Positions 1,048-60,149 of a stretch of 61,720 nt of DNA are shown piece after piece. The notes under the pieces are model-generated. The model had not been told where the DNA came from, did not search any database, and worked only from the letters and a program-made list of their open reading frames with translations. Origin of the DNA: a virus (lineage: Duplodnaviria > Caudoviricetes); IMG/VR virus record IMGVR_UViG_3300035438_000178, positions 1 through 61,720 of that record. One strand, 5' to 3'. The translations under genes were made by a program, and so were the position numbers. Position 1 is the first letter of the stretch, and each line of letters starts with the position of its first letter.

Positions 1048-4000
1048 TTATTCTCCTAACTCGTTGTGGAGGTTACTCTTGCTGTAGATAGCGTTGATAG
1101 CGTAAAGCTCTACTTCAGATATTGAAGAAGTAGACAGACGAATCTTCGCATAGTAGTCACGAATCTGGTCTCCCTCAAGCGTAGAATAAGGTGCAAGAGC
1201 AACAACAATGTCGCCATTGGTGATTCCCGCAGGAGGTGCGCTGACAGTTATTGTATTGGCTCCAGAGATTCCAGTAATGGTAATAGTTGGGCTTCCAATA
1301 GCAATAAGCGACGTTCCTGAGACACGATACAATGTAGAACCAATTGGGAATGGGATATTACCAATTGGAGCTGTGAACGTGATATTGCCAGAGGTTGAGC
1401 TTTGGATTATACCCAAAGAGTAAACCTCAGAAGAACCACTAAGAGAAGTAATCGTAGACGTACCTGTATTTGGTGAGCTGTCACGCGGAATGTAGGCGTA
1501 GAAGTTGCGCTCCTTCAATGCGTAGTCACCGTAAGGGTAGTAGATGCTGTCTATTGTTACTGGAGTTGCACTAATAGAAGTTGACTGGTCAGTATTTGTT
1601 ACGTTTGCAGCCCAAGCATCAGTTCCTTCAATGCTAAGAGATTCGTAAGCCTTAACCATAGAAGGATTGAAGTTTGAAATAACTTCAACTACAGAGCCTC
1701 CATTTACCCCGTAATAAGTAGAACGGTTAGCACCCTCGTGGTGTTTGTACATCGCTCCAGCCTTGAACGTATACAACGTATCATCTATAGATGTAATGTT
1801 CTCAGGAGTAAACGAGTAGCGAGTGTTCCAAACAGATTCACCAGTATCAAATCCAGCGGAGAAGTTTCCGTAAGTGTTTGCAGCAGCACCAATAGATGCA
1901 GTGAACTCAGGGCAACTTAGAACGAATGGGAACGTAAATGAACCGTCTGCAATGTTGATTATGATTGGAACAAAGAAGCTATAGCTTGTATTTGTTGCAA
2001 TTCCATAAAGAGCATTACTTGAGTTTCCAATAAACTCTTCACCAAGTACAACCGGATACCCATCAGACATACGGTCCAAGAACGCAATAGCATTTATGCT
2101 ATTATCAAATGTATCGCATATCTGATTGAATACTCGCTCTTCAGTATTGAAGTGGAACAGCAAGTCATCATTATATGTAAAAGAACACAAAACCTTAGTC
2201 CGGTTCTGGTCTGTCTGTATATTGTAAGTAGCTATTAATGCAGCAAGTGAATTGTATACATTGACGACTGAAGTATTAAATCCTTCAGATGCAATGATGT
2301 ATTCTCCATTCTCATCATCCAATCCTCCAATTACTTTCTTGATGGACGCAAACTGAACGATGTCTCGGAAGTTATCCTTGAAGAAAGAATCCATATTGGC
2401 CTCAGAGATAGGAGTGAGTCCATCTTGAGAAAGACGCATAACCTTTCCGCTTCGGATGTCAGCAAAGTAGATACGACCACGCTGTACCGCAACAGACTCA
2501 GGGTTATTGTTTACTCCATATTCTCCACTGTAATACTGAGGAACACCAACAACATTCTTGGTAGCAGTAACTGCTGAACTACCATCAGAGAACTCAACCA
2601 AGTTTCTTCCAACAGGAAATAAACCAACCTTCTTGTCTTGCAAGAAAACTACGCTATCATCTCGGTTTATCAGTACGCGGATAGAACCGTGAATGTAGTT
2701 TAGGTCATAGAAGTTTGCCTGAGAAGGAGTGAAGCTTGATAATCCGAGGTAGAATGAATCAATTACAAATGGACCAGAATATGTTACAGAGCCTGTACGG
2801 TATACAGTCTTTGCATTGACGTTCTCAACTAATGGACGACCAATAGAGGTGTACTTAGATGCAAAGAAGTCACTTACGTTGTCTGTCTCTACATTCTCTA
2901 CAAAGTAACCAAATGTCTTAGCCTTCTTGCCATAGCGCAGCATACGTGGACGGTAGTAGCAATCACCCTCATCCAAAGAGATAACAGCCTCCGTTACGTT
3001 GGTTATAGTAAGTGTAGGCGTAGATGCAGCTGTAAATGTCCCGCTAAGAACAGTTCCGAGAACTCTCCAGTTACCTAAATAAGTAAAGAAGGTTTCTGGT
3101 ATCACATTTGTAACTACAAAAGAGTTACCACCGGAACGGAGTATATCACCAACAGCAGCAAACGTATCTAGAAAAAACATTACATTCTGACCTGATACAG
3201 TATCGCAGTAAGAGGCTGTAGTTGCCGGACGATTGATACCATACATCGTTCCGTTTATTACCGGATACGATTTACCAATCTCGTAATAAATCTCTTGTTC
3301 TTGGACTTGCTTCGCTTGACGATAAAGCTCAATAATACATTTATTTGACCACTTATCTGTCTTTCTGATTACGCTTTGCTTTCCAAATGATTTAGAGTCG
3401 TTATCACGAAGAGCCAAGAACCATCCAGTAGTGTTATATATAGAACTCTCGGAAGTAGATGAAAGAATCGGGTTAGTTGATTCATCATTTGTGAAGAACT
3501 CATAACCAACAACTTCAAATTCAGCGTCTGCATATATTCTAGTCTCTTCATAAGTACCAGAAGTAATGTTGATGACACCAGAAGATGGATTATTAATATT
3601 GGTTGCTATTGCTCCAAAAATAGATGCAGCAGCAGGAATACCTTCAACAAATATTAATCCAGCGAAGTTTACTATGTTTGATTGAAGTACCGTTGCAGTA
3701 TATAGATTTAATCCATCTATAATCAGCAACTTATCACCAACAGAAGGGGCAGTAACTACTCCAGTAACATTAAGGGTAAACCCAAAAGTATTGAATGATA
3801 TAACTCGAAGTTTATCTCCGGGAGTGTATTTGTACTCAATGTTTGCCCCCTTACTTTCCTTGTATGAATCATCTTTGCCCTCAAGAGAGCGCATAGACAC
3901 ATACAACAAGTCCTGATTGGAGTTTCCAGCAATTACGCTGTCTGCGCTTGGATTTGAAGCAATAAAGCCAGCAATGGTACTATACTGAAGGAACTCTGTT

Positions 4001-29575: not shown

Positions 29576-30007
29576 TTGCAGCGTGTTTTACGTTTGGTTT
29601 TAAGAATACAAGAATCTGTTTCCTTTCATTACAAGACAAATGTAACAACTTTCCAAATACAGAAAATCAGCACATACAGAATTTTGAACAATTGTGGATA
29701 AGGATTTGGAAATGTCATTTTTTTTTCGTAACTTCGCTTTGTCTTTAGACAGCTTTAGCATTGCAGCAATAACAATGTTATGTAAAGCAATGTATTCACA
29801 GAATCCCTTGCTTTTCCAAATCATAGCGTAAAACACGCTGCAAATACAACACAAACCATAACACGCTGAAGTCACAAACGTAAAGACGGCGTATTGCATT
29901 TATACATATAGGCTATTTCAATCCACCTTAGTGGTTGAATTAACAGATTCTATCTTCCTCAAAACCAATGGGGTAGCTGAACCACTTCAAGTTTTGCTTT
30001 AAATTGG

Positions 30008-30053
30008 GAGAAATGTATATGGTGCATAAAACATATGAGAAATGTATATGGTG
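30008..30053. repeat. 17-bp direct repeat GAGAAATGTATATGGTG x2
   Basis: Copies at 30008-30024 and 30037-30053 in the non-coding strand-switch region. Confidence 0.85.
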
Positions 30054-30451
30054 GGGATAATATATATATAGGGACGGTCCGTAGCGCGTACCCAAACGCA
30101 TCCGCGCACCCAAGCCCCCGCGCGCGCACGCAGAGTTAGAATAATATCTAGCCTTTTCTATAACTCCTAGTAAGAATATCTTAGCCTATTAGTTAGATAT
30201 CATAGTATTCTTTCTCTCCATCTAACCAATTGATTACTAGATACTAATGGTTTATTATCTCACTTAGTTCTTTAATTAAACCTTATATCTTTCTATCTAA
30301 CAAATAGTTAGAGTAAACAATCCCCTTCTTAGATATCTAACTAAGTATCTAATACAAAAACGGGCGAGGCGACGGCTCCAAAAAAGTAATAATTTATATT
30401 GTTCCAAAGGAACATATATATAAATTATTAAAAAAAAACATTTCAAAAAAC

Positions 30452-30483
30452 TTGACAACGGCATTTCCACCGCCATATCTTTG
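30452..30483 (+). promoter_or_regulatory. Early promoter P1 (TTGACA..TATCTTTG)
   Basis: Bacteroidota -33/-7 arrangement with upstream A-tract. Confidence 0.8.
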
Positions 30484-30549
30484 CATCGTCGCCGAGAGGA
30501 AAGCCCTCCACACACCGCGACTAATGAATAACTTAATGTAATAGTTATT

Positions 30550-30774
30550 ATGAGTAAGATTAAAAACAAATCTACAAAGAGTAATTACTCACCTCGTAAA
30601 ACTCCAAGTTTTACTAGTATCTACCAAGAGAATATCTATGTCTCTTATGCCTTCAAGAAGATTAAGGCTAGGTTTAACTCTAAGTGTTATGCTACCGGTA
30701 CTTTGATTCCTGTTGGAGCAGAGATGTGGTATGATTATGCTAACAAAACTTGTTTTGCTATGGACTCTATTTGA
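30550..30774 (+). CDS. Early hypothetical protein
   Basis: 74 aa; IKARFNSKCYATG.LIPVG; first gene after P1. Confidence 0.6.
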   Translation: MSKIKNKSTKSNYSPRKTPSFTSIYQENIYVSYAFKKIKARFNSKCYATGTLIPVGAEMWYDYANKTCFAMDSI

Positions 30775-30826
30775 GTTCATAGCACTGAGTAAGAAAAAAA
30801 AAAAAAAAAATTAAAAACTATTAGTT

Positions 30827-31027
30827 ATGAAAACTATTTCTCAAGCAACTTACAATTCAATCTACAATAAGTACCTAAAGTTAGTTAACTACTACGATGA
30901 GTTACTTTGGAATGATGGTTACGATGATGATGGTGAAACTACTGAGGATTGGAGTTATATCATTAGTATGACTAATGAGTTCAATGAGAGGTATCATCTG
31001 ATGATGAAAGGTGTAAAGGTTAACTGA
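30827..31027 (+). CDS. Early hypothetical acidic/aromatic protein
   Basis: 66 aa; TTAGTTATG start context; its TGA stop lies inside the ribozyme core. Confidence 0.65.
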   Translation: MKTISQATYNSIYNKYLKLVNYYDELLWNDGYDDDGETTEDWSYIISMTNEFNERYHLMMKGVKVN

Positions 31028-31073
31028 TGAGGCTTTAATAGCCGAAACATATCCTAAGGGATATGTCTTAACC
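31018..31073 (+). ncRNA. Hammerhead ribozyme (type I topology)
   Basis: GGTTAA | CTGATGA | GGCT-TTAAT-AGCC | GAAA | CATATCC-TAAG-GGATATG | TC | TTAACC; all core nucleotides and three stems present; cleavage predicted after C31067. Confidence 0.93.
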
Positions 31074-31086
31074 AAAATGTTTAGTT

Positions 31087-31233
31087 ATGCATAAAGTAAT
31101 GTGTTTCATCCTGATGTTAGCAGGTACATTCCTGTTCGCTGAGTGTCTACGTCGTGGATTCGTAGGCTTTGGGCTGATAGGTGCTATGTCTGCTGTAGCC
31201 GGATTGTACTCCTACATTCAGGAGGGAAAATAA
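31087..31233 (+). CDS. Small two-TM membrane protein (not in ORF track)
   Basis: MHKVMCFILMLAGTFLFAECLRRGFVGFGLIGAMSAVAGLYSYIQEGK*; TTAGTTATG start context. Confidence 0.65.
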   Translation: MHKVMCFILMLAGTFLFAECLRRGFVGFGLIGAMSAVAGLYSYIQEGK

Positions 31234-31289
31234 ATTTATACTACGAAGTAGTATATACGGCAAGAACTAAAATTTTTTTTGCCAAACAC

Positions 31290-31321
31290 TTGACAAAGGG
31301 GTTTCGATTGTTATACCTTTG
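31290..31321 (+). promoter_or_regulatory. Early promoter P2 (TTGACA..TACCTTTG)
   Basis: Shares CCAAACACTTGACAA and TGTTATACCTTTGCA with P3. Confidence 0.85.
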
Positions 31322-31381
31322 CAGAGCCAACGGCGAAAGGGTCACGCCGAATGTTTGACCCGAATGTACAAAAATTGTGTT

Positions 31382-32761
31382 ATGAAAAATGTTTTCGATT
31401 ACGAGGGTCAACAACACCCTATGTCTGAGTGTGTAGTGCTACACGAAATGAGTGACTACGGCGGTGAATATATTCACCGAGATGTGGCTGTAGCCTTCCG
31501 TCTTGATGGGGAAACGCAATACTTTACTCCGGAGGAGGCTGTCTACGACATCTACGACACCCCTGTGATGCTGAGTGACGCGGTGCTCTTAGACAGGGGC
31601 AACCACGGAGGCGAGTGGTGCGCTATGAACGAGGCTGTCCTCACTGAGGATGCCGGATGGGTTCACGTTTCCGATACTTACTACGTAAGTTTGAGCGACG
31701 GAAACACCTACTTCTATATGTGGAACTTACGAAATGTTACCGAAGGTACTGTCGCCGAAGGGTGGTACAGCGAGGACGATTGTGTCTACGTAGAGGATGC
31801 AGATGCCTACTACCACGTAGATGATGAGGGTGTGTGGTACACCTTCGATGAGCAAAATTCCGAGTATGTTTTAATCCAAAATGATAACCAAAACCCCAAT
31901 GTTATGAGCACAATGTCTACACCTACCCGCGGCATCAACACCGGCATCCGTGTCGAGGACTACCACCAAGGCCGGATGGGTTCACCTGTCCGTGAGTGGA
32001 AAGCGGGCGAGGCAAAGTTTACCATCGGCTTCGAGGTTGAAAAAGAGGACACCACACCTACGAATGTGTGGAGCGTGATTGACACCCGTGTCTACGGATG
32101 GGTTCGAGAGCGCGACGGCTCACTGAACCATATGACCGGATACGAATTGGTCTCACCTACCTACGACCTGTTCGGGTCTGAGCTCGACACCGACCTTGCA
32201 AGCGAGTGCATCACCGAGCACGTCAACGGCGCCTACAGCGAGCGCTGCGGGGGGCACATCAACTTCGGCATCAAGGGTCTGACCGGATTGCAGGTCTACG
32301 AACAGATGAAGGGCTTCACACCCCTGTTGCTGTCCCTTTACAAGGGACGTTTGCTGAATCGCTACTGCAAAATTCGTCCGGACTACAAGGACGGCAGCAA
32401 GATGGGCGCTGTGCACGTCAAGCCGGGCTTCATCGAGTACCGAGTGCCGAGTGCCGTCAAGAGCACTGAAAATTTGCTGTGGCGCCGCGATTTGCTCCGC
32501 ATTGCCGCCGAGCACGCCGGAAAGGGTGCGGCCTACTTCACCCGGGCTGCGATGACCAAATCACACCCGCTGCACAAGCACTTGCGTAAGGTCTACGACG
32601 AGCGCACAATCGCACTGCGAGTGGGCTTTGCACTGTCGCTTGCCGAGCGTATGGAGGGCAAAAAATTCTCCAACTACGTTACCTTCACCGAGGTAACCGA
32701 CATCATCGACGTCCACGCCGCGGATGTTGAGCGCCACCTACAACAGGCTGCACACCTGTAA
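31382..32761 (+). CDS. Putative amidoligase (COOH-NH2 ligase-like), copy 1, with acidic/aromatic repeat N-domain
   Basis: FTIGFEVEKE, RERDGSL, GYELVSP, CGGHINF, IEYRV motifs; start taken at ATG 31382 downstream of P2. Confidence 0.75.
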   Translation: MKNVFDYEGQQHPMSECVVLHEMSDYGGEYIHRDVAVAFRLDGETQYFTPEEAVYDIYDTPVMLSDAVLLDRGNHGGEWCAMNEAVLTEDAGWVHVSDTYYVSLSDGNTYFYMWNLRNVTEGTVAEGWYSEDDCVYVEDADAYYHVDDEGVWYTFDEQNSEYVLIQNDNQNPNVMSTMSTPTRGINTGIRVEDYHQGRMGSPVREWKAGEAKFTIGFEVEKEDTTPTNVWSVIDTRVYGWVRERDGSLNHMTGYELVSPTYDLFGSELDTDLASECITEHVNGAYSERCGGHINFGIKGLTGLQVYEQMKGFTPLLLSLYKGRLLNRYCKIRPDYKDGSKMGAVHVKPGFIEYRVPSAVKSTENLLWRRDLLRIAAEHAGKGAAYFTRAAMTKSHPLHKHLRKVYDERTIALRVGFALSLAERMEGKKFSNYVTFTEVTDIIDVHAADVERHLQQAAHL

Positions 32762-32917
32762 GGTACACGTAGGCAAGGGGGTGTGTGTAGATATACACAC
32801 CCCTACACCTACACACGTAGACATACATATCTACACATATATGCACGTCTACATACGTAGACATACACACATACACACCTACACCTACACATAAACCCAC
32901 AAACACCTACACCTATG
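32760..32917 (+). repeat. RYCTAC/GTAGRY-(AC)n low-complexity array with GGGGTGTG/CACACCCC hairpin
   Basis: Intergenic; repeated ACACCTAC, GTAGAC, ATCTAC; ends ACACCTACACCTATG. Confidence 0.85.
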
Positions 32918-33511
32918 GCTAACATTTGCAACAACTTCGTAACGATTTCCGGCAAGCCTGAGAATATCCGAGCTGCCTACAATTTTCTCCTCGACTACAC
33001 ACCCGACCACGGCGTGATGTACGACCGACTGCGCGACCTACACCTACGTAAGGGCTACACCCTGACCCCTGAGGACAACGGCGCCGCCTCACCTGTGTGG
33101 TGGGAGTACAACGTAGAGTACACAATCGTCGACCTTGACAACAAGGTAGATGTAATTTCTGTCGTCGGTGGTTCAAAGGGAATGCCGCCTGTGGATTTCC
33201 TACGCCTACTGAGCGAGCACTTTCACGTAGATGTGAGCGCTAAGTACGAGGACTACGCCGGATTCATCGGCGGATACTTCAAGGCTGTCAACGGTGACCC
33301 TATTGTCGACGATTTCCTGAGCCTACTTGAGTACCTGTGGCGCTACGATGACGAGCGCATTGCCTTCTACGATGAACTGCATTCGCTTTGTAAGTGGAAC
33401 GACCACGGCTTCGAGGATGTTAAACGACTGCATCTGAGTGAGTTTAAAACACCACTGACCGATGATGAATTGAGAATCATTGGAAAGTATTTCGAGGATG
33501 ATGCCTCGTAG
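32915..33511 (+). CDS. YubB/Api92 ferredoxin-like (DUF1281-like) protein
   Basis: 198 aa; MANICNNFVTISG N-terminus, PP..F...LSEHF...AKYED..GFIG. Confidence 0.6.
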   Translation: MANICNNFVTISGKPENIRAAYNFLLDYTPDHGVMYDRLRDLHLRKGYTLTPEDNGAASPVWWEYNVEYTIVDLDNKVDVISVVGGSKGMPPVDFLRLLSEHFHVDVSAKYEDYAGFIGGYFKAVNGDPIVDDFLSLLEYLWRYDDERIAFYDELHSLCKWNDHGFEDVKRLHLSEFKTPLTDDELRIIGKYFEDDAS

Positions 33512-33640
33512 GTACACACCTACACCTACGTACATACACGTAGGCACGCACACCTACACCTACGTACACATACATACGTAGGTACACACACCTACCTACA
33601 CACACATATACCTACACCTACAAACACCTACACACCTATG
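33508..33640 (+). repeat. Array of GTAGGY-(AC)n-ACCTAC units
   Basis: Three GTAGG(T/C)..ACCTAC inverted units plus further ACCTAC copies, ending ACACCTATG. Confidence 0.85.
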
Positions 33641-33846: not shown

Positions 33847-33878
33847 TTGACAAGGGCATACCGAATGTTATACCTTTG
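33847..33878 (+). promoter_or_regulatory. Early promoter P3 (TTGACA..TACCTTTG)
   Basis: Near copy of P2; followed by CATCGTC as in P1. Confidence 0.85.
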
Positions 33879-50597: not shown

Positions 50598-53500
50598 TTA
50601 CTTTTTATTATAAAGCTCTCTGAAGGTCACATAGAACTCCTCATTAGGACGGAAACCTGTTGATTTCAGGTCTTCAAAGGCGTCATTTATCTCCTCAGAA
50701 CTCATTTTTCCAAACTTCTCGTAGAACATCTTAGCAGCAATTGTAGGCGTCTCCGCATAGCGAATGCTCAACATACTACGCTGCTCATCTGTCCGTGCCA
50801 ACTCGTAGAAATACTTGCGTGCAATACGCTCACGCTTAGCTTCAGGAAGGCTGTTAAGTACGCGCTTGATTTCAGCAACATTACGCTTCTTGGTCTTCAA
50901 CTCTTGACGAGCCAAAGATTTAATCTTTTCAGATGCAATGTAGTCCTCAGTGCCTTCCTCCAACTTTATCTCTTCAGCCTTGCTTCCCTTTTTAACGTAG
51001 TCACGCCACTTAGGACTTGTATCACGAATGAATATTTTAACAGGCGCATTCAGAGCACGGCTAACTTCCTGACTGACAACATCAGAAGCTTTGGTTTCTT
51101 TCTTCTCCTGAGACAAGTCGATATCCTCTGCGCCAACAACAGCTGCTGTTGCACGAGATGCGACATCTAAGAATCCGTAAGCAATACCTACCAAGAAGTT
51201 AGTGCTAGGCTGAGTAATAACAGATTCAACACCAGCCTTCAAGCGAGGTGCAGAGATGTCCGGAATGAACTCACTTTCAGAAGCTTTAGCAATAGCCTTG
51301 TAGAAGAACTCTACCTTATCATTCTCACGCTCCTCAGCGTATGGCTTTATCTTTCCAAAGAACTGCTCAGGTACAATAGTAGCGTTACGGAAAGAGTCGT
51401 AGTTAAAGAATGCTTTAGCGATAGCATTGAACGTAGGTATACGAGAGAACAAGTCTGAAGCATTATCAATTCCCGGAACAAAGAAGGGAACAGAGTCAGC
51501 CATATTTTCCCAAATAGCCTTAATCTCATCCTCAGAGTATCCTTTAGACTCTCCAGTATTGATGTAGTGTGCCCAAGAACGTGCAACCGTCTCTACCGCT
51601 GTGGTTAGAGGTACAAGTTGCTGTACTTTCTTAATACGCAAATACTTACGAGTACCGTCTTCATTCTTTACTGGAAGAAGGATAACGTGATAACGGTGAC
51701 GGATATATGGGTCAATATCTTCGTAGTCATCATCACTGTAGGCAAGTATGTTGTACATAACAAGACCCATAAGTCCTCCCGCATACTGAGCAAACTTGAC
51801 TGCAAAAGCTTGAGGATTGTCCTTGATTCCCTTAAATGTTGCATACGTTGCTTGGAACGCTACGTTCAAGTATGGTGAAATAGCATCCAAGTCCTTAGTC
51901 AGTGAACCACCCTTGCTGAAGTCAACAATGTCGCGAGCTTCAGCAGCAGCCATAAACTTGATTTTCTCAATGCCTTCAGCAGTCTTCGCCAAATCAGGGA
52001 ACTCTTGCTTAAGGTTCTCAATCATACGGCGATATACAGCCAATCGGAGACCAATTTCAAACGCTTCACCCGTGTAGGCAATGCCTTTTGTGAATTTGTC
52101 CCATCTTTTAGCTAGGTTGTACTCAAGTTTATTCTTGTACTTATCCTTGAATCGGTACTCAGGACGGAACTCCTGACTCATAAAGGACATACCACCTCCG
52201 TGAGCAAAGTAATCTTGCAGGATTTCCTTATCCCTCACCTTGCTGTAGATGCCATAGGAGTAATCCTTAGCCATCTTGAGCAATGCGATAGGCAAGAAGC
52301 TGTCCTTTCCGTAGACACGTGAACGTGACATAATTACGTTCAATGCTTCAGGAACAGCCAAGCCAAATCCAAACGTAGGGTTGTATCCGGTAGCAAAGAT
52401 TCTAAGGATAGGCGCACCTGCAAGAGCAGAAAGGACTTTCTTAAACCGTCCACCTAATCCAAAGAAGCTCTTGTTCATATCCTGCCACTGCTCGTACAGG
52501 TCATTACGCATCTGTACAGCGCGAAGCTTACCTCCCTCTTTGTAGTATACGTTAGTGAATCCTTCATCAGCAGGGTCAAAGACTTCATTACCATACTTAT
52601 CAGTAGCAACATCACCATTTGACAGAGTTTTGTTGTTTGCCTTACGCAACCACAAAGCATTGTCAGGAGTAGTTCCCTTAGCTAATTCAGCAGTAGCAAT
52701 GTTCTCAAAACGCTTAGCCTCAGCAGCTTTGAATGCGAAGGACAACAGCATCTTAGAGTCCATAAGCAAATTCCCTTCGCTACCTTCTTCGATAGCCTTC
52801 AGGACATCTTGCTTAAGTCCAGTTCCGGCGCGCTCAAACACCTCATTATCAAGATTCTCGAAAATCTTTTCAATGAATTTACGAGGCTCGTAATCGTCCT
52901 TGATGAATCGCTCTAAAGTCTGTTCATCAATCAAACCGTTTTGGTAGTACGAACGCAGAATGTTTCTGAACTGGTCAAAATACGCATCTGCATACATATT
53001 CAGCTCGTTGAACTTGCGGTTACCAAGCTTTCTTTGAAGAGCACCAGTAGCTTGAATACACTGCTCAGCGTTCAATCCCTTAGGATGCTTTGGACGGACA
53101 GCATACTGCTCAACACGCTCTTTTAGTGAATCAAGTTCAGCCTTTGCACGAATCAAATCATTCTCAAGAGAGGCAATAGCCTTCTTATCAGGCTTAGCCT
53201 TCTTCTTTTCCTCGCGGATTAGAGCATTCGTAATTGATTTAGTTTCATCGTAGTTGTTCCGAGCATTTTTATAGCTGTCCTCTGTCGCCTTCTTGCGCTC
53301 ATCCCAATTAGAATCAATCTGAATGATACGACGCATCAAGATTAACTGGTCTAAAAGCTCAATATCTGCCCGGCTAAGTTTACCATAGATAGCATTCTCA
53401 GCCTTCTCAAACAGATACGTAGCATTAGCAAAAGCTCCAGCACGCAACGTGAGTAGGTTTTCTGCAAACTCAAGGTTACCCTCAACCATAGCGTCACGCA

Positions 53501-56500
53501 CATCTGCCTGTCTGTCTAACCAAGCATTCTTAGAGAAGATAGTCTTCTGAAACTTATTGAATGCAGACATACGACTAGCGTACTCTTTGTCAGAGTCATA
53601 AGAAGCCTCAGCAACTTTATCCAAAGCCTTATCCTCCTTAGCCTCTTCTGTAGGGTCAAGCTTGAATTTGCGTGAAAATTTCACCGCAGACTTGGTGAAT
53701 ACTGTCTCTCCATTTAAGTTACGTAAAACTTTTGGAAAAGGTATAACCTCACCAACTTCACTATAGGCGTTAAATTGCTCAGAAAAGTCACGGACCTCAT
53801 AATAGTCCATATTTTTTGTCTCCTCTGGTGACAATATCAACCTACCATTATATTGATTAATTAATCTTTCAATATTAGCAGCTCCTGAATAACTACTTTG
53901 ATTAAAATTATCATAATCACTTTCGGTTTCCTTAGGATTCGGAACCGCATTAAAAGCATATACTGCTAAAGAATTGTCACTAAATGTTACAACGCGAGCA
54001 ATTTCGGTTCCTGACTTTAGTGTAAAACTCGGACCAACACTTCTAGCATATGCCTTGTTATATAAAATTTTTCTTCTTAAGTTATTTCCTTCAAACTGTT
54101 GAATGGTATTCATTATACCTTCAGCAATCTTTTTCTGTTCAGGTGATGATGATTTAGAATCTATTGTTTTTGTTACATTTTTTTCAAATTTCTTGTAATA
54201 AGGGTGACTTCTGTCATCCCCTGCGGCAGCAAAGCTAACTGTAGCATATTCAACGTCAGGAAACATTTTAGGGATTAATGCAACAACACGCTGAAAATTT
54301 CTAGCTGTATCTAAATAAGGAGGTACGTTAGAGTATGTGAAAATATCTGAACTAAATGCTATATATACATTTTTACCAATAGGGTCATATGTAGCATCAA
54401 TAGTATAAGTGTCTTTTAGAGTAGTGCCTTTTATATCCTCTGGTATTACATCAAGACCCAAATATGTTTCTGGAACAACCCACTCAACATCAAATGATTT
54501 TTTTCTCTGTAATTCATTACTTTGCATTTTTACTCCAGCATCATCAAGAATTGACCTGACATCAGAAACAGTAAGAACCTTATCTAAAAGTTCTTTTGGT
54601 GGTGTTCGAGATGTAGCTTTTTTAGCACTGTCAGAAATGAAATCTATTGCTTTTCCATTTACGAACGAACGCATAAATTCAGGTGAGTTAATATCTATTT
54701 GAAATAAATTTAACTCTTGTCTTCCCATTCGAAAACTTCCCGGACCAATTCCAATAAGATTAGGTGATGCGTCTGAAATTGCTTTAGAATTTGTAATCCT
54801 ATCAGGATTTGCACCACTATTACCTTCTTTAATTGCAGACTTAGCAGAATCAATCATTTCTTGAATATCGCTATGAAAGTCTAAAACTGAAGGGAACCTA
54901 GTAGGATTTAGTAAACTACTGTAAAGACTAGTAAAATGATATACAAATTTTGAAGTCTGTTCAACATAAAGAGCGAAAGCGTTAGTTACTTCAGGAGAAT
55001 CTATATCTAATCCTTCGACTTTAGAATACTCATTTTCAAGGTCATAAGTAGCTGAAACATTATATTTATCAATTCCTGCTAAACGTACTTGATTATCTGA
55101 GTCAGTACCAATATAATAGATGAAATATGTTTTTGGGTTATCCCTATATAATATAGGAAGTGTTTTTGTTTTATAAGCCTTCTCTATAGCATCGTTTATC
55201 ATATCATCATAACCACCCAGTATTGTTGAGTCATCTGGGTCATAATTAAGTGTAGCTTTAGATATTATAGAATAGTCATTGAAACTTGTTAAATTATTCT
55301 CTAGTTTGTCTTTTAAGTATTGAGAAATGATAAGTGCCCTTTGCTTTGGTTCAAGAGATACACTACCAAAAGAAGTAGCTTCAATTAGTTTATCAAAATT
55401 ATTTATATCTATTTTACTAAAAACATCAATCAATTTATCTGTTGCATCCATTTTTACGTTAAATAACTCATCAATGTCCCCTTTGAAAAAAGAACTTGTT
55501 GACTTATAGTTAAAAACAGAAGCCTGAAACTCATACATATTACTAATTAAGTTAGTACCAGAGGTAAATAAAGAACTAAGGAACAACTTTGCTTCATCAC
55601 TGAGACGTTTTATCCCAAAGTCGTATCCTCCTACAGTTCTTGACTCATTTAAAGCATCATCATAAGCCACTACATCAAGCTGAAGGCCTTGATAAGCAGC
55701 GTCAGTGTTGACCATTTTAGAAGCAATAATGTCCTGTAATGTATCAAGAGTAGTCTTATATGCTTCAGTTGATAAAGAAGGCAATTCAGTATTTTGCTTG
55801 ATTATCTGTGATAAATCATCAAGTCGTGACTTTACATTAAAGTCCTCAATAGACAGATTAGTTTTCTCTAACTGTTCATTAAACTCTTTTATAGATTCAT
55901 CAACTATTGCTTTTACTACCTTATTATTGTTTACATCATCATCACTGTAAGTCAATGAATACTCAGCTAAAGCATCTGAGATAGCTATGTAAGCAAGCTG
56001 AGTTTTGGTTTCTATGTTAGCCGTATTTAAGAATTTGCCGAACTCTAAATTCTTTATGCCAGTTGCAGCGCGAGCAGAAGCAACTTCTAACAATTTTTCA
56101 TAAGATGCTCTTGCAATAGACAAAAGACCATCACCTTCAATATTCTTTCCGCTTACAACTCTGTCAATTACAGATGAATAGAACTGCTTGTTACGTTGTT
56201 TTACAATGTCAAAAAACAATGCACCATAAGAAAACATTGCTTGGTCCCTGCTTTTTGCATCTGCATTTACAAATACTACCTTATTAGTTGGTTTGTCTAA
56301 ATCAATGTCGTAACCTTTTGATTTAAAAAACTCCAATGCTTCCTTGCCATATTTTACACCAAGCATTTTTTTGAAATCATCCAAGAACTCAACCTTAGAT
56401 GTAAAATCAAACTTTGCTGTGTCAGACTTGACAAAAATTAATGGTACATTCAATTTTTTAGCAAAGTGCTCAAGGACAGTCATTGAGTTGAGCAAAGGCT

Positions 56501-59500
56501 CAGAAACCTCATCCTGAATATTTTTTGCATCTAAAATCTCTTTTTCCATCACCAGCATAGATGGCTTGTCTTCCAAGAAACGCTGAACAAATTGAATAGC
56601 CTCAGGTTCACCAATAGAAAACTTGAGAGATTTGATTGCATTTGCTTGAGGTCCAGATTGTTTAATCTTGACAGCCTGACCAGCCTCAAAAGCTTGATTC
56701 ATAAGATTCAAGAAGTCAAACACTTCCTTCTTACTCTTCAATCTCTTCTCAACACCAAAGAACTTCAGAATATTGTTTACGAAGTCGACAATCTTCTCAA
56801 ACGTAGAAGTCTCAGGCTTGATTTGGTTGTACAGCTCAGGCTGAGAGAATTGAGCAACAAACTCAACAAAAATCTCCTCCATATCTGCATTGTTGATGAC
56901 TTGACGCATCTTACGTGCAGCAGCAGTACGAGACAACTCTTCAGGAAGAGTGTCGATAATGTCCATAATGATACGCGAGGCACGGAACTGGAATGTCCGG
57001 TCTTCACGTGAAATAGCATCAAGGATAGGGTGAAGGATTTCGTGACGAATGACACGCATTTGGTCTTTCGCAATCTGTCCATTCATATCAGGAGTCACCA
57101 ATACGTGGATTTGCTTATCCTTCGCATTGTAGTATCCTTCAATTTCGAAATCAGGTCGCTCAGCAAGGCTCTCGTAAAGAGACTCCTTATTGTAGTGCAA
57201 CACAAGATTTACATCAGGAAGGACAGAATATAAGGTGCTCAAGTAGCGATTGATAACCTCGGCAGTCTTCTTGTTGAGACGCTTAGATAGGTTACCAATT
57301 CCAATAACTTCAACATCACGGGCAGCAACAGCCTCCTCCTTTGTTTGAACTTCAGGACGTGGTTTTGCTGGTACTTTGGTTTTCTTCTCGACCTGCTTAG
57401 TAACCTTCTCGTAGGCTTGGTCAAACTCATACTGAGGAATAGCTCCAAGCTGACGAATCTTGCCTTCAATGGCTAAATCCATAGCAAGGTTTAGGTCAGA
57501 AGTAGTTGGTTTTCCAAGTACAGTTCGCTCCGAACGGTTACGAATGGTAATGGTACGAGCAGATACAGGCTGTCCCTTAGGGGTAGCGCTGCGTACAACT
57601 ACACCATCAATATTACCGAACTCATCAAGTGATGATTCAACGTATTCGATAGCATCATAGTTAGGGAATACGCCTTTCTCACGGCCTACTTCTCTCTTGC
57701 GCTTGAATACAACAACATCAACAGTTCCGTCTTCTTGAACTTCTAGATAGGAGCGTTCTCCGGGCTTTTCATTTCCGGTTGAGACTGGGGCATAGTTGAC
57801 TCTTTCGCTGAGGTTGAGTTTGCCTTGCGGTTTGACGCTAATTTTTGGAGTTCGTTTAGGAGCTCCAACTGGGACTTCCGTGGTAACTTCCTCAGTTGTA
57901 ATAGCTGTTTTGTTGTCATAATAATCGATTTCGTTGAATTTATCAGTAAGTACATCGGTGTATACCTGCTTTTCATCCTCTGGAATATCTAATGCTTGAA
58001 CTTCATCAATAGCTTGGATAATCTGTTCCTGAGCTGTATTGGCATCATTAATGTCGACTTCCTGATTCTGAGCCATTGCTTCAAAAACAGGTAAAGCATC
58101 AACACGAGTAGCAATCTTGTCAGCGTCAGTTTCTACTTTGACTTCTTCGCCAGTTTCTTGAACCACTCCACCTGCTTGAGGCGCTGCTTGGCCTCCTTCA
58201 GTGACAGGTTCGACTTTGACAGGGGCTTGCCCTCCTTGCTCTGGACTTGGTACTTGCCCTTTTTCGAGATTATCATACTTGTACTTTTCAGTAATGTTCT
58301 TAATCTGAGAGTATGTGTCGAGCATTTGCGTCTTCATAGAGTCACGAACCTCATCGTTCGTGCTTTCCATCCGAGACTTAGCAAGTTGCTCTAAATCAGA
58401 ATTCAAGGCATAGACCTTTGCTTGGTCATCCTTAGTCATATTCTCAAAGAAGGCAACACTTGATTTGACTTCTCCGTCACGACGCTTAGTCAAGTCTAAA
58501 ATGTCTTTGGTAAGTGCATAACGCTCCTCAGGAGTTTGAGCCTCCGACATTGCATTACGCTTGACTTCTAGAGCCTTATTAATTTTTGTTACTTCAAAGT
58601 TTCTTCCAATACGACCAGCTAGGTATACAGGTGTAGATGCAGTAGCACCAGCACCAGTAATAATACCAGCCATACCTAAGCCAGCAGCTCCAGAACGAAC
58701 AGCAGCCTCAATTATTCCACTAGCTGTTACCTCTTCTCCTTTTGCTGCGTTATCAATAACGTATTGAGATGCACCAGTAAAAGCTTCACCAAGTGATTCT
58801 TCAGTTAAGTTTACAGCACCCCCCTTAATAAGGCCGGTAAAATATTCGTTAAATGTTTTCTTAGCAGCAGCCTTTCCTCCAGCGTCAACAACTCCACGCA
58901 TAGCACGAGTAAGTACCCTTCCTCCAACAACCTCTCCGACAGCCTCAGTAGCACCCATTGCTGAAACATAGCCTAATGCTTCAACATCAGACATATCCTT
59001 GAACCACTTCTCATTTTTGACATCGCCATAAGATTGAGCAGCGGAAAGAGCAGCCATAGTAGCATAAGATGCAGCCGGGCCACCAGCGAAATTGGCAGCA
59101 GCTGCGATACCCATAAGTGGAGCACTTTGGGCTGTGGTATTCAGCGCTATGCGTGCAGCATTAGAGAAGTCACCATCGGTAAGAGCATCATAAAAATCTT
59201 GCTCAAACTTAGTCGTATTCAAATTGAATTCTTTCTGCTGAAGCTGTCTGCTAGACTCAAGCGGGAGTCCGAATGAATCAACCTCTACTCCTATAGCTGA
59301 ACGAATACCATAATCTAAATTACCTATACCTGATGCAAGGTTATAAACAAAGTCCTTGAATATGTTTTGGTCATTGTAACGCTTGTCTCCACTCAAATCA
59401 AGAGAAATTCCTTGATTTATAAACAAGTCATTCTCAACTTTCTTTAGATACTCTTTGTCGTTTCGCTTATCCTCAGGGAGTTTGTCAAGAATCTCTTGCT

Positions 59501-60149
59501 TTGTGAAATCCTGTAAACGGGAGTTTACTTGAGAAGTTTGCTGAGAACGTACAACATCCTCAAACTTCTTTTGGGTAGTTTGAAGCTGAGTAGAAAACGG
59601 GTCTACCTCTTTTCCTTTCAAGTTTAAAGTAGCACCACCACGACGTTCGAAACTCTGTCTTGCTGCCTCAATAGCGTCTTCTTCAGGGCTTTTTGGACGG
59701 AACTTAAGAGCCTCTTGGGTACGACGCTCAGTAATAGTTTCAAAAATCTTGTTCGGAGTTTTGCTAAGTGACTCTACTTCATCAGAAGTAATGTATCCAT
59801 TATCAATACCCTCCCGAACAACTTTAAGAGCAGCGCTGTTATAAATCTCGTTCCGGTTTATACCATATCGGTCACCCGCGTTTTTGGTAGTCTCGGAAGC
59901 CGAAGTAGACGGCATAGGCTTTTGCACGCCACGTCCAGCGGATGGAACAGCCATAGACTCCTTCCTTCCCTCTGATGACGTTGAAGGAGTAGGAGTAGTT
60001 GATTCTTTTTTTTTTACCCCGTACAGCTTCTTGTAGTCATCTACGACAAACTGAATATTAGCATCTGATTCTTTGTTAGAAATCATTTTTCTAACAATGT
60101 CGTCAAGTTTTAATTTGTCTTTTTCAGAAAGAATAAGTTGGTCTTCCAT
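50598..60149 (-). CDS. Giant internal virion/ejection protein with HExxH zincin-like and LPD38-like domains
   Basis: 3183 aa; Ala/Gly hydrophobic block near aa 330-510; IEGYY..IRHEILHP; C-terminal VDFSKGG...ISPYLNVAFQ. Confidence 0.7.
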   Translation of the reverse strand: MEDQLILSEKDKLKLDDIVRKMISNKESDANIQFVVDDYKKLYGVKKKESTTPTPSTSSEGRKESMAVPSAGRGVQKPMPSTSASETTKNAGDRYGINRNEIYNSAALKVVREGIDNGYITSDEVESLSKTPNKIFETITERRTQEALKFRPKSPEEDAIEAARQSFERRGGATLNLKGKEVDPFSTQLQTTQKKFEDVVRSQQTSQVNSRLQDFTKQEILDKLPEDKRNDKEYLKKVENDLFINQGISLDLSGDKRYNDQNIFKDFVYNLASGIGNLDYGIRSAIGVEVDSFGLPLESSRQLQQKEFNLNTTKFEQDFYDALTDGDFSNAARIALNTTAQSAPLMGIAAAANFAGGPAASYATMAALSAAQSYGDVKNEKWFKDMSDVEALGYVSAMGATEAVGEVVGGRVLTRAMRGVVDAGGKAAAKKTFNEYFTGLIKGGAVNLTEESLGEAFTGASQYVIDNAAKGEEVTASGIIEAAVRSGAAGLGMAGIITGAGATASTPVYLAGRIGRNFEVTKINKALEVKRNAMSEAQTPEERYALTKDILDLTKRRDGEVKSSVAFFENMTKDDQAKVYALNSDLEQLAKSRMESTNDEVRDSMKTQMLDTYSQIKNITEKYKYDNLEKGQVPSPEQGGQAPVKVEPVTEGGQAAPQAGGVVQETGEEVKVETDADKIATRVDALPVFEAMAQNQEVDINDANTAQEQIIQAIDEVQALDIPEDEKQVYTDVLTDKFNEIDYYDNKTAITTEEVTTEVPVGAPKRTPKISVKPQGKLNLSERVNYAPVSTGNEKPGERSYLEVQEDGTVDVVVFKRKREVGREKGVFPNYDAIEYVESSLDEFGNIDGVVVRSATPKGQPVSARTITIRNRSERTVLGKPTTSDLNLAMDLAIEGKIRQLGAIPQYEFDQAYEKVTKQVEKKTKVPAKPRPEVQTKEEAVAARDVEVIGIGNLSKRLNKKTAEVINRYLSTLYSVLPDVNLVLHYNKESLYESLAERPDFEIEGYYNAKDKQIHVLVTPDMNGQIAKDQMRVIRHEILHPILDAISREDRTFQFRASRIIMDIIDTLPEELSRTAAARKMRQVINNADMEEIFVEFVAQFSQPELYNQIKPETSTFEKIVDFVNNILKFFGVEKRLKSKKEVFDFLNLMNQAFEAGQAVKIKQSGPQANAIKSLKFSIGEPEAIQFVQRFLEDKPSMLVMEKEILDAKNIQDEVSEPLLNSMTVLEHFAKKLNVPLIFVKSDTAKFDFTSKVEFLDDFKKMLGVKYGKEALEFFKSKGYDIDLDKPTNKVVFVNADAKSRDQAMFSYGALFFDIVKQRNKQFYSSVIDRVVSGKNIEGDGLLSIARASYEKLLEVASARAATGIKNLEFGKFLNTANIETKTQLAYIAISDALAEYSLTYSDDDVNNNKVVKAIVDESIKEFNEQLEKTNLSIEDFNVKSRLDDLSQIIKQNTELPSLSTEAYKTTLDTLQDIIASKMVNTDAAYQGLQLDVVAYDDALNESRTVGGYDFGIKRLSDEAKLFLSSLFTSGTNLISNMYEFQASVFNYKSTSSFFKGDIDELFNVKMDATDKLIDVFSKIDINNFDKLIEATSFGSVSLEPKQRALIISQYLKDKLENNLTSFNDYSIISKATLNYDPDDSTILGGYDDMINDAIEKAYKTKTLPILYRDNPKTYFIYYIGTDSDNQVRLAGIDKYNVSATYDLENEYSKVEGLDIDSPEVTNAFALYVEQTSKFVYHFTSLYSSLLNPTRFPSVLDFHSDIQEMIDSAKSAIKEGNSGANPDRITNSKAISDASPNLIGIGPGSFRMGRQELNLFQIDINSPEFMRSFVNGKAIDFISDSAKKATSRTPPKELLDKVLTVSDVRSILDDAGVKMQSNELQRKKSFDVEWVVPETYLGLDVIPEDIKGTTLKDTYTIDATYDPIGKNVYIAFSSDIFTYSNVPPYLDTARNFQRVVALIPKMFPDVEYATVSFAAAGDDRSHPYYKKFEKNVTKTIDSKSSSPEQKKIAEGIMNTIQQFEGNNLRRKILYNKAYARSVGPSFTLKSGTEIARVVTFSDNSLAVYAFNAVPNPKETESDYDNFNQSSYSGAANIERLINQYNGRLILSPEETKNMDYYEVRDFSEQFNAYSEVGEVIPFPKVLRNLNGETVFTKSAVKFSRKFKLDPTEEAKEDKALDKVAEASYDSDKEYASRMSAFNKFQKTIFSKNAWLDRQADVRDAMVEGNLEFAENLLTLRAGAFANATYLFEKAENAIYGKLSRADIELLDQLILMRRIIQIDSNWDERKKATEDSYKNARNNYDETKSITNALIREEKKKAKPDKKAIASLENDLIRAKAELDSLKERVEQYAVRPKHPKGLNAEQCIQATGALQRKLGNRKFNELNMYADAYFDQFRNILRSYYQNGLIDEQTLERFIKDDYEPRKFIEKIFENLDNEVFERAGTGLKQDVLKAIEEGSEGNLLMDSKMLLSFAFKAAEAKRFENIATAELAKGTTPDNALWLRKANNKTLSNGDVATDKYGNEVFDPADEGFTNVYYKEGGKLRAVQMRNDLYEQWQDMNKSFFGLGGRFKKVLSALAGAPILRIFATGYNPTFGFGLAVPEALNVIMSRSRVYGKDSFLPIALLKMAKDYSYGIYSKVRDKEILQDYFAHGGGMSFMSQEFRPEYRFKDKYKNKLEYNLAKRWDKFTKGIAYTGEAFEIGLRLAVYRRMIENLKQEFPDLAKTAEGIEKIKFMAAAEARDIVDFSKGGSLTKDLDAISPYLNVAFQATYATFKGIKDNPQAFAVKFAQYAGGLMGLVMYNILAYSDDDYEDIDPYIRHRYHVILLPVKNEDGTRKYLRIKKVQQLVPLTTAVETVARSWAHYINTGESKGYSEDEIKAIWENMADSVPFFVPGIDNASDLFSRIPTFNAIAKAFFNYDSFRNATIVPEQFFGKIKPYAEERENDKVEFFYKAIAKASESEFIPDISAPRLKAGVESVITQPSTNFLVGIAYGFLDVASRATAAVVGAEDIDLSQEKKETKASDVVSQEVSRALNAPVKIFIRDTSPKWRDYVKKGSKAEEIKLEEGTEDYIASEKIKSLARQELKTKKRNVAEIKRVLNSLPEAKRERIARKYFYELARTDEQRSMLSIRYAETPTIAAKMFYEKFGKMSSEEINDAFEDLKSTGFRPNEEFYVTFRELYNKK

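What the first reader, a model, noticed from the sequence alone, without database searches (positions are those of the whole stretch)
31018..31073. Hammerhead ribozyme whose catalytic core contains the stop codon of an early gene
Seen: stem I GGTTAA(31018-23)/TTAACC(31068-73); core CTGATGA(31024-30); stem II GGCT/AGCC; GAAA(31044-47); stem III CATATCC/GGATATG; GTC cleavage triplet ending at C31067. The TGA of CTGATGA is the stop codon of 30827..31027, and the cut falls 19 nt before the ATG of a small membrane-protein gene (31087). Established: this is the canonical hammerhead consensus, and intergenic hammerheads are known in phages. Inference: the first early mRNA self-cleaves into a piece ending in 2',3'-cyclic phosphate and a piece starting with 5'-OH. 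A ribosome terminating on the core would block folding, which could couple cleavage to translation.
Basis: partly seen in the sequence, partly recalled or inferred. Interest (0 to 1): 0.85.

Follow-up and report, generated by a model that had tools for sequence, protein, structure and literature searches.

The report
Phage type I hammerhead ribozyme at gene boundary
A textbook self-cutting RNA (hammerhead ribozyme) sits between two tiny genes of a lake-water phage; it belongs to a large family of such elements in phages that standard RNA annotation misses, and its overlap with the upstream stop codon is common in that family.

Summary
31018-31073 (+) is a complete type I hammerhead with stems of 6, 4 and 8 bp and cleavage after C31067. 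It is the only such site in the window and is not expected by chance. It matches a large phage family. Forty viral contigs carry the identical 25-nt core plus stem II with different, compensating stems I and III. A broader sample gave 94 distinct sequences in which 14 of 16 pairs covary. Cultured Pelagibacter and Flavobacterium phages carry members. Rfam thresholds miss the window copy and 27 of 28 relatives tested. The layout is stereotyped. The upstream ORF stops within or just before the ribozyme, and the next ATG lies about 26 nt after the cut. The stop inside the core occurs in 10 of 35 and 15 of 82 contexts, because the core carries in-frame UGA UGA. It is one common register, not a special feature of this phage. 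The most likely role is processing of an early polycistronic mRNA, as already proposed for phage hammerheads. Ribosome-gated cleavage is untested. Verdict: a new member of a known kind.

The parts
30452..30483 (+). Promoter-like motif TTGACA-N18-TAnnTTTG, the putative start of the first rightward transcription unit. That it resembles a Bacteroidota-type promoter is recalled, not tested.
   Evidence: 3 matches in the window (30452, 31290, 33847), all on the + strand; 0.19 expected; 0 of 100 shuffles reach 3.
30550..30774 (+). ORF of 74 aa, first ORF of the unit, no family match
30827..31027 (+). ORF of 66 aa. Its last two codons (GTT AAC) are the stem I 5' strand plus core C3, and its stop TGA is core U4-G5-A6.
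   Evidence: Only 3 near-identical homologues (92-97%), all 66 aa and all ending GVKVN.
31017..31017 (+). Unpaired A immediately 5' of stem I, conserved in the family
   Evidence: A in 90 of 94 distinct family sequences
31018..31023 (+). Stem I, 5' strand (GGUUAA)
   Evidence: all 6 pairs covary in the family
31024..31030 (+). Catalytic core C3-U4-G5-A6-U7-G8-A9
   Evidence: invariant except N7 in 94 sequences
31031..31043 (+). Stem II (4 bp, G10.1-C11.1 closing pair) with loop UUAAU
   Evidence: 3 of 4 pairs covary and G10.1-C11.1 is present in 93 of 94; loop consensus U-N-A-W-U
31044..31046 (+). Core G12-A13-A14
   Evidence: invariant in 94 of 94
31047..31066 (+). Stem III (A15.1-U16.1 plus 7 bp) with loop UAAG
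   Evidence: 5 of 6 modelled pairs covary and A15.1-U16.1 is invariant
31067..31067 (+). C17; predicted cleavage on its 3' side, leaving a 2',3'-cyclic phosphate here and a 5'-OH on U31068
   Evidence: Position follows from the hammerhead consensus. H17 is C in 85, A in 8 and U in 1 of 94. Chemistry is inferred, not tested.
31068..31073 (+). Stem I, 3' strand (UUAACC), the first 6 nt of the 3' product
31074..31075 (+). Conserved unpaired AA after stem I, a candidate partner of loop II
   Evidence: A in 80 of 94 and 66 of 94; the first A covaries with the last loop II base (U:A 67, A:U 6; MI 0.365; 0 of 500 shuffles reach it).
31087..31233 (+). ORF of 48 aa with two hydrophobic segments (read by eye); start codon 19 nt after the cut
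   Evidence: a single 98% homologue; no family match
31237..31255 (+). 8-bp hairpin after ORF48, followed 17 nt later by T8 (31273-31280). Possibly the end of the unit, but not a canonical terminator.
   Evidence: Read; the terminator scan did not list it
31290..31321 (+). Second copy of the promoter-like motif, start of the next unit

Best explanation
31018-31073 encodes a functional type I hammerhead ribozyme with open stem I. It belongs to a large family of phage hammerheads that sit at boundaries between small genes. Transcription from the promoter-like site near 30452 would give an RNA carrying ORF74, ORF66, the ribozyme and ORF48. Once the ribozyme folds, it cuts after C31067. The 5' piece keeps ORF66 with its stop codon and ends in the stem III hairpin with a 2',3'-cyclic phosphate. 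The 3' piece starts with 5'-OH and a 19-nt A/U-rich leader before ORF48. The likely purpose is to separate the two cistrons so that each has its own stability and translation, with a defined leader that does not depend on the upstream gene. The stop codon lies in the core because of tight packing: the core supplies in-frame UGA UGA, and the upstream ORF simply runs into it. Shown here: the motif, the family, the covariation and the stereotyped layout. Inferred: cleavage, the end chemistry and the effect on expression.
For: All defining hammerhead positions are present. The site is unique in the window (74.7 bits, next best 12.6) and is not expected by chance. Forty viral contigs carry the exact 25-nt core plus stem II. 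38 of these 40 pass a strict stem descriptor, and the other two score 36.9 bits with model R1. In 28 distinct sequences, 99.8% of cells pair and 10 of 16 pairs change on both sides. In 94 distinct sequences from a broader sample, 99.5% pair and 14 of 16 pairs covary. The two invariant pairs are G10.1-C11.1 and A15.1-U16.1. The covariation score is 0.875 against 0.162 in shuffles and at most 0.118 in slid controls. The window copy has the family consensus at the conserved non-core positions as well. The layout is stereotyped. The upstream stop lies at -11..+1 in 28 of 35 contexts and at -16..+14 in 71 of 82. The median cut-to-ATG distance is about 26 nt. Several contigs carry 2-7 copies flanking small genes. 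Perreault et al. 2011 (PMC3088659, passages read) describe the same picture. They showed in vitro and in vivo cleavage for prophage hammerheads, and they proposed processing of long phage transcripts. The stop codon always lies upstream of the cut, so cleavage creates no stop-less mRNA.
Against: There is no cleavage assay and no RNA-end data. No Rfam model reaches its gathering score here: RAGATH-1-hammerhead scores 28.1 against 56.3, Hammerhead_3 scores 22.5 against 48.5, and Hammerhead_1 gives no match at the site. Stem I is short and A/U-rich, and its pairing probability falls to 0.14-0.5 in some longer contexts. Both flanking ORFs are orphans, so their coding status rests on ORF calls and near-identical variants only. 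The closest deposited TerL relative (MW202828.1, 48% aa) has no R1 match, so the element is patchy in this phage lineage. The covariation samples were selected by core sequence, my descriptor required stems, and alignment A3 was fitted to the model.
Confidence: 0.8

Rival explanations
1. Translation-gated ribozyme. The upstream stop codon is placed inside or at the edge of the ribozyme on purpose. Ribosomes finishing ORF66 would melt stem I and cover the core, so cleavage would occur only when upstream translation is low. Processing of the downstream message would then depend on upstream translation.
For: The stop lies within the ribozyme or within 16 nt upstream of the core in 28 of 35 and 71 of 82 independent contexts. 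There is no avoidance of ORFs reading into the core or loop II: 10 of 35 in the first sample, and 25 of 82 at +1, +11, +12 or +14 in the second. An unannotated ORF in Pelagibacter phage HTVC019P also ends at the core TGA. Sterically, a terminating ribosome must cover stem I, the core and part of stem II (established ribosome footprint; recalled).
Against: The same pattern is expected from genome compaction alone. The core and the common UAA at the end of stem I offer ready-made stops, and the registers are spread over many positions rather than fixed. No data on kinetics or expression exist. I found no paper describing such gating for natural hammerheads (search listing).
Confidence: 0.15
2. 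The conserved ribozyme mainly marks exchangeable gene cassettes. Identical 25-35 nt ribozyme segments shared by unrelated phages would serve as short homology for recombination that shuffles small genes, with RNA cleavage secondary.
For: Flanking genes are unrelated across loci while the 25-nt core plus stem II is identical. In the same lake metagenomes many other contigs match only 31014-31049 and then diverge, and one contig has two copies 1083 nt apart.
Against: Stems I and III differ between copies in compensating fashion. That points to selection on RNA structure, not on DNA identity. Stem II also covaries once selection on it is lifted. No recombination junctions were examined.
Confidence: 0.07
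3. Inactive look-alike: a chance or decayed hammerhead-like sequence, or merely a structured intergenic hairpin cluster with no cleavage.
For: All Rfam scores are below gathering. There is no experimental evidence. Perreault et al. report some hammerhead-like sequences that were inactive (passages).
Against: Chance expectation is about 0.007 loose hits per window and none as good. Every core position matches. The family consensus is also kept at positions outside the core. Model R1 gives 74.7 bits.
Confidence: 0.03

Closest known systems
Type I hammerhead ribozymes of bacteria, prophages and phages (Perreault et al. 2011, PMC3088659; also stated in Lopez-Galiano et al. 2026, PMC13725137)
   Same: Same core, three stems and open stem I with a long stem III. 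Same intergenic position in phage gene arrays, often in several copies flanking single small genes. Same proposal of processing polycistronic phage RNA (passages read).
   Different: Nothing fundamental. I could not check whether this exact subfamily is in their alignments, because supplements are closed. The subfamily has a 6-bp stem I, a 4-bp stem II with loop U-N-A-W-U, and flanking A / AA. 'Stop codon' occurs 0 times in that paper's text.
RAGATH-1 hammerhead (Rfam RF03152)
   Same: It is the best-scoring Rfam model at the site. It is type I, with a stem I ending in UUA before the core, a long stem III and GUC (alignment).
   Different: The score is 28.1 bits against a gathering score of 56.3. 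The model has a one-pair stem II and an extra 5' hairpin, whereas the window has a regular 4-bp stem II. The Flavobacterium phage elemoF copy has two A-C mismatches in stem II, which brings it closer to that form, yet it gave no Rfam match at E<=0.1.
HHphage of haloviruses HF1/HF2 (described in Perreault et al. 2011)
   Same: A hammerhead in the early region, 13 nt upstream of a start codon. The mapped 5' end of the transcript lies within 3 nt of the cleavage site (passage). That is the same geometry as the 19 nt here.
   Different: It is an archaeal virus with a variant ribozyme that needs high Mg2+. It precedes the first ORF of a transcript rather than lying between two ORFs.
Rfam Hammerhead_1 (RF00163)
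   Same: Same ribozyme class and topology by definition.
   Different: The model gives no match at the site. It reaches gathering for only 1 of 28 family members tested, the one with a GUAA-type loop II.
Synthetic ribozyme insulators such as RiboJ (recalled, not looked up)
   Same: A hammerhead placed before a coding sequence to give a fixed 5'-OH leader that does not depend on upstream sequence. This is what the window element probably works like.
   Different: Engineered, derived from a plant satellite RNA, and not a natural phage element.

Membership tests
Hammerhead ribozyme (class) | Core C3-U4-G5-A6-N7-G8-A9 | tested here: met
   CTGATGA at 31024-31030
Hammerhead ribozyme (class) | Core G12-A13-A14 followed by the A15.1-U16.1 pair | tested here: met
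   GAAA at 31044-31047; A31047 pairs with T31066
Hammerhead ribozyme (class) | Cleavage-site nucleotide H17 (not G) after U16.1 | tested here: met
   C31067
Hammerhead ribozyme (class) | Watson-Crick pairs next to the core in all three stems (10.1-11.1, 1.1-2.1, 15.1-16.1) | tested here: met
   G31031-C31043, U31068-A31023 and A31047-U31066
Hammerhead ribozyme (class) | Three helices supported by compensating changes in relatives | tested here: met
   10 of 16 pairs and 14 of 16 pairs change on both sides; 99.5-99.8% of cells pair
Hammerhead ribozyme (class) | Tertiary contact between stem I and loop II needed for fast cleavage at low Mg2+ | tested here: inconclusive
   There are conserved unpaired A / AA at the end of a fixed 6-bp stem I and a conserved loop II. 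There is also a covariation hint between the last loop base and the first 3' flank base. No 3D test was possible.
Hammerhead ribozyme (class) | Site-specific self-cleavage giving 2',3'-cyclic phosphate and 5'-OH | not testable with these tools
   No RNA holder was listed among the sequencing runs, and only contigs could be laid
Rfam Hammerhead_1 / Hammerhead_3 / Hammerhead_II | Score at or above the family gathering threshold | tested here: not met
   Hammerhead_3 scores 22.5 against 48.5, in a wrong register; Hammerhead_1 and Hammerhead_II give no match at the site
RAGATH-1 hammerhead (RF03152) | Score at or above gathering (56.3 bits) | tested here: not met
   28.1 bits, E 0.0074 on a 301-nt stretch; 3.6e-4 per genome
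RAGATH-1 hammerhead (RF03152) | Minimal (one-pair) stem II and an extra 5' hairpin, as in the model's consensus line | tested here: not met
   The window has a 4-bp stem II. A 4-bp hairpin can be drawn at about 30996-31012 in the alignment. Its conservation in relatives was not tested.
Phage gene-boundary type I hammerhead family defined here (model R1) | 6-bp stem I, 4-bp stem II with 5-nt loop, A before and AA after stem I, next start codon about 20-40 nt after the cut | tested here: met
   The window scores 74.7 bits (it is one of the 28 sequences the model was built from) and has the consensus at all these positions. Its leader is 19 nt against a family median of about 26.

The most novel reading that the evidence does not exclude
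The family is a combined 'stop, cut, restart' punctuation module of aquatic phage early operons. The ribozyme supplies the stop codon of the upstream gene (UGA UGA in the core, UAA at the end of stem I, stops in loop II). Its flanking mRNA nucleotides form the tertiary contact. Ribosomes terminating inside it gate self-cleavage. The release and fate of the downstream 5'-OH message would then depend on how heavily the upstream gene is translated.
Probability: 0.15. Interest if true: 0.7.

Novelty: new member of a known kind. Interest (0 to 1): 0.4.

Why it matters
Hammerheads between phage genes have been known since 2011, but what they do is still open (review passage). This window adds a clean example. 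More usefully, it points to a very uniform and abundant subfamily. Rfam-based annotation misses almost all of them. Members occur in cultured phage-host pairs: Flavobacterium elemo phages, and Pelagibacter phages HTVC019P and HTVC131P. There, cleavage, 5'-OH ends and any link to upstream translation could be measured directly. In one of these genomes the ribozyme is currently annotated over by a small opposite-strand ORF.

Tried and rejected
Close relatives of this phage were sought, to see whether the ribozyme and the stop-in-core arrangement are kept:
- blastn of 30500-33500 against deposited phages found no match.
- A viral-contig scan with the 459-aa neighbour found none.
- A metagenome-contig scan with the ORF66 alignment found none.
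- Only near-identical ORF66 and ORF48 proteins exist in the protein collection.

Expression evidence: no RNA holder was listed among 24 runs. Laying four runs gave contigs only and no information on RNA ends. The run guessed to be RNA covered mainly 31014-31049 through other organisms' hammerheads.

Other ribozymes in the window: there was no Rfam match at gathering. There was no ribozyme family at E<=0.5 in the whole window, where the five hits were on low-complexity DNA. There was no second R1 match with filters off. There are no tRNAs.

Flanking proteins: there were no PHROG or Pfam families for ORF74, ORF66, ORF48 or the 459-aa ORF. Genes flanking the ribozyme in other contigs are mostly unrelated to each other, so I dropped the idea that the ribozyme travels with one gene family.

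Three-frame stop idea: I considered that the ribozyme closes all three reading frames. In the window the third frame is open across the whole ribozyme, so I rejected it.

Literature: searches found no paper linking hammerheads to pelagiphages or Flavobacterium phages, or describing ribosome-gated natural hammerheads (search listings). Supplements of Perreault et al. 2011 (alignments, Dataset S1) are closed and may already contain this subfamily.

Full report
What is there. ORF 30827..31027 (66 aa) ends with the TGA formed by core U4-G5-A6. ORF 31087..31233 (48 aa) starts 19 nt after the cut.

Is it more than chance? A descriptor scan of both strands found only this site. In 300 first-order Markov shuffles of the window there were 2 loose hits in total and none with comparable stems. 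The MFE fold of 31005-31090 is the three-way junction. Stems II and III keep pairing probabilities of at least 0.85 and 0.98 in all contexts tried. The short A/U-rich stem I varies from 0.14 to 0.93.

Databases. Rfam gives no match at gathering thresholds. In E-value mode the best model is RAGATH-1-hammerhead at 28.1 bits (threshold 56.3). Next is Hammerhead_3 at 22.5 bits (threshold 48.5), aligned in a wrong register. Hammerhead_1 and Hammerhead_II give no match at the site. By Rfam's criterion, therefore, the element belongs to none of those families, although it meets every sequence and structure feature that defines the class.

Relatives. The exact 25-nt stretch of core plus stem II occurs in 40 viral contigs. 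Of the 40, 38 pass a strict type I descriptor, nearly always with a 6-bp stem I. The remaining two have the same sequence as each other and an interrupted stem III; they score 36.9 bits with the model below. The 25-mer does not constrain stems I and III, yet these pair in 99.8% of cells in 28 distinct sequences, with changes on both sides in 10 of 16 pairs. The covariation score is 0.531 against 0.117 in shuffles, and 0 of 500 shuffles reach it.

A covariance model (R1) found 13 further copies in seven of those contigs, with covarying stem II sequences. A looser pattern that leaves stem II free gave 79 new loci. There R1 found 100 matches at E<=0.001, plus the window copy. In the 94 distinct sequences, 99.5% of cells pair and 14 of 16 pairs covary. 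The two invariant pairs are G10.1-C11.1 and A15.1-U16.1, the pairs that are conserved in hammerheads. Slid controls score at most 0.118 against 0.875.

Three caveats apply. The samples were chosen by core sequence. My descriptor requires stems. Alignment A3 was fitted to the model.

Beyond the core, the family conserves an A just before stem I (90 of 94), loop II positions 1 and 3 (U in 88, A in 87) and AA after stem I (80 and 66 of 94). The window has all of these. The last loop II base and the first base after stem I covary: U:A 67, A:U 6, MI 0.365, reached by 0 of 500 shuffles. This is a weak hint of the tertiary contact and could also reflect relatedness of the sequences.

Layout in the family. 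In the first sample there were 36 independent contexts, 35 of them with an upstream ORF of at least 40 codons. The upstream stop lies at +1 (the core UGA) in 10, at -3 (a UAA ending stem I) in 9, at -5 to -11 in 9, and elsewhere in 7. In the second sample there were 89 contexts, 82 with such an ORF. The stop lies at +1 in 15, -8 in 15, -9 in 7, +11 in 6 and -3 in 5, and 71 of 82 fall between -16 and +14.

The first ATG opening an ORF of at least 30 codons lies a median of about 26 nt after the cut in both samples; 27 of 34 lie within 14-38 nt in the first. Stem I is exactly 6 bp in 76 of 89. At least one descriptor hit (a 31-nt stem II inside a 584-codon ORF) is probably spurious.

The stop-in-core arrangement is therefore recurrent (29% and 18%), but it is one register among several. 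It has a simple cause: CUGAUGA reads UGA UGA in one frame.

Flanking genes are diverse small ORFs. A few are small membrane proteins, and others look like anti-restriction or DUF-type phage genes by eye. Several contigs have 2-7 copies bracketing single genes.

Setting in this phage. The window is a whole 61.7-kb virus record recovered from lake-water metagenomes; 19 DNA runs hold half or more of the sampled words. Its large terminase is 48% identical to that of an uncultured podovirus and 41% identical to those of Flavobacterium elemo phages. Structural and lysis genes lie on the minus strand up to 29575.

The plus-strand block starts after a non-coding gap of about 1 kb. A motif TTGACA-N18-TAnnTTTG occurs three times (30452, 31290, 33847), all on the plus strand, against 0.19 expected. 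From memory it resembles Bacteroidota promoters. The ribozyme therefore lies in the first short unit: ORF74, an A17 run, ORF66, the ribozyme, ORF48, a hairpin at 31237-31255, and then the next promoter copy. 'Early' is an inference from position.

Model R1 finds a copy in Flavobacterium phage elemoF (NC_055853.1, 16041-16106, minus strand, 40.2 bits). It lies between two small minus-strand genes, 30 nt before the start of gp67, and under an annotated opposite-strand ORF, gp66. The closer TerL relative MW202828.1 has none.

blastn of the ribozyme against deposited phages hits 7 Pelagibacter and 5 Flavobacterium phage records. R1 scores 51.9 and 51.2 bits in HTVC019P and HTVC131P, in an unannotated gap upstream of a regulator and an integrase. 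In HTVC019P an unannotated ORF also ends at the core TGA.

Of the 28 R1 matches in 17 loci, only one reaches an Rfam gathering score.

Mechanism. The best reading is a self-cleaving processing site in a polycistronic early mRNA. The 5' product keeps ORF66 with its stop and ends in a stable hairpin with a cyclic phosphate. The 3' product is ORF48 with a short, unstructured 5'-OH leader (fold). This matches what Perreault et al. 2011 proposed for prophage hammerheads that flank genes. They showed cleavage in vitro and in E. coli, and they noted a halovirus hammerhead 13 nt before an early gene whose mapped 5' end lies at the cleavage site (passages). A 2019 review states that the purpose is still undefined (passage). 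A 2026 paper notes that type I hammerheads are typically DNA-encoded in bacteria and phages (passage). That 5'-OH ends slow 5'-end-dependent decay, and that ribozyme insulators standardise leaders, is recalled knowledge and was not checked here.

Compaction alone predicts the same layout, and nothing here tests it.

Verdict. This is a genuine, well-supported hammerhead and a new member of a known kind. It is of moderate interest, mainly because it exposes an abundant, uniform and under-annotated subfamily with cultured representatives in which function could be tested.

Noticed in passing
window 32790-32915 and 33513-33640: Two intergenic tracts between early plus-strand genes consist of imperfect ACACCTAC-like repeats. 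They are C/A-rich and almost G-free on the sense strand. They gave only spurious microRNA and snoRNA hits in Rfam. Their function is unknown; a G-poor, C-rich RNA loading or binding site is one thought.
   Followed up: partly
window 30452-30483, 31290-31321, 33847-33878: Three plus-strand copies of TTGACA-N18-TAnnTTTG (0.19 expected by chance), each ahead of a gene or gene group at the start of the rightward block. They are likely promoters of a Bacteroidota-type host; the consensus is recalled.
   Followed up: partly
window 30794-30810: A run of 17 A between ORF74 and ORF66. Read laying reported that contigs seem to be cut around 30782-30822.
   Followed up: no
window 29600-30550: A gap of about 950 nt without convincing ORFs lies between the leftward lysis/structural block and the rightward block. 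It includes a G+C-rich patch at about 30075-30135.
   Followed up: no
L048 (NC_055853.1 16030-16137): In Flavobacterium phage elemoF the annotated plus-strand ORF gp66 lies over a minus-strand hammerhead (R1, 40.2 bits) between gp65 and gp67. The ORF is probably a mis-annotation. Stem II of this copy has two A-C mismatches.
   Followed up: partly
L049 1493-1561 (NC_020483.1 about 2944-3012) and L050 1500-1570: Pelagibacter phages HTVC019P and HTVC131P carry family members in an unannotated gap upstream of a transcriptional regulator and an integrase. In HTVC019P an unannotated 64-codon ORF ends at the core TGA.
   Followed up: partly
L035, L095, L084, L051, L080 (viral contigs): Some contigs hold many copies (for example 6-7 in L035 and 7 in L095), each just ahead of a small gene, like beads along an operon.
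   Followed up: partly
e.g. L022, L038, L060, L090, L098, L116: In several copies the 3' strand of stem I contains an ATG 2 nt after the cut that opens an ORF. If used, this would give a nearly leaderless 5'-OH mRNA. In L022 a second in-frame ATG further on looks like the more likely start.
   Followed up: no
L018 1759-1828 and L033 1636-1701: These contigs have Rfam int-alpA RNA matches just above gathering, near their hammerhead arrays.
   Followed up: no
window 50598-60149 (-): A single ORF of 3183 aa on the minus strand near the right end of the genome. It was not examined.
   Followed up: no
window 31014-31049, in runs X12, X16, X19, X20: The same lake samples hold many other contigs that share only the ribozyme's 5' two thirds and then carry different, self-complementary stem III sequences. 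One 22-kb contig has two copies 1083 nt apart.
   Followed up: partly
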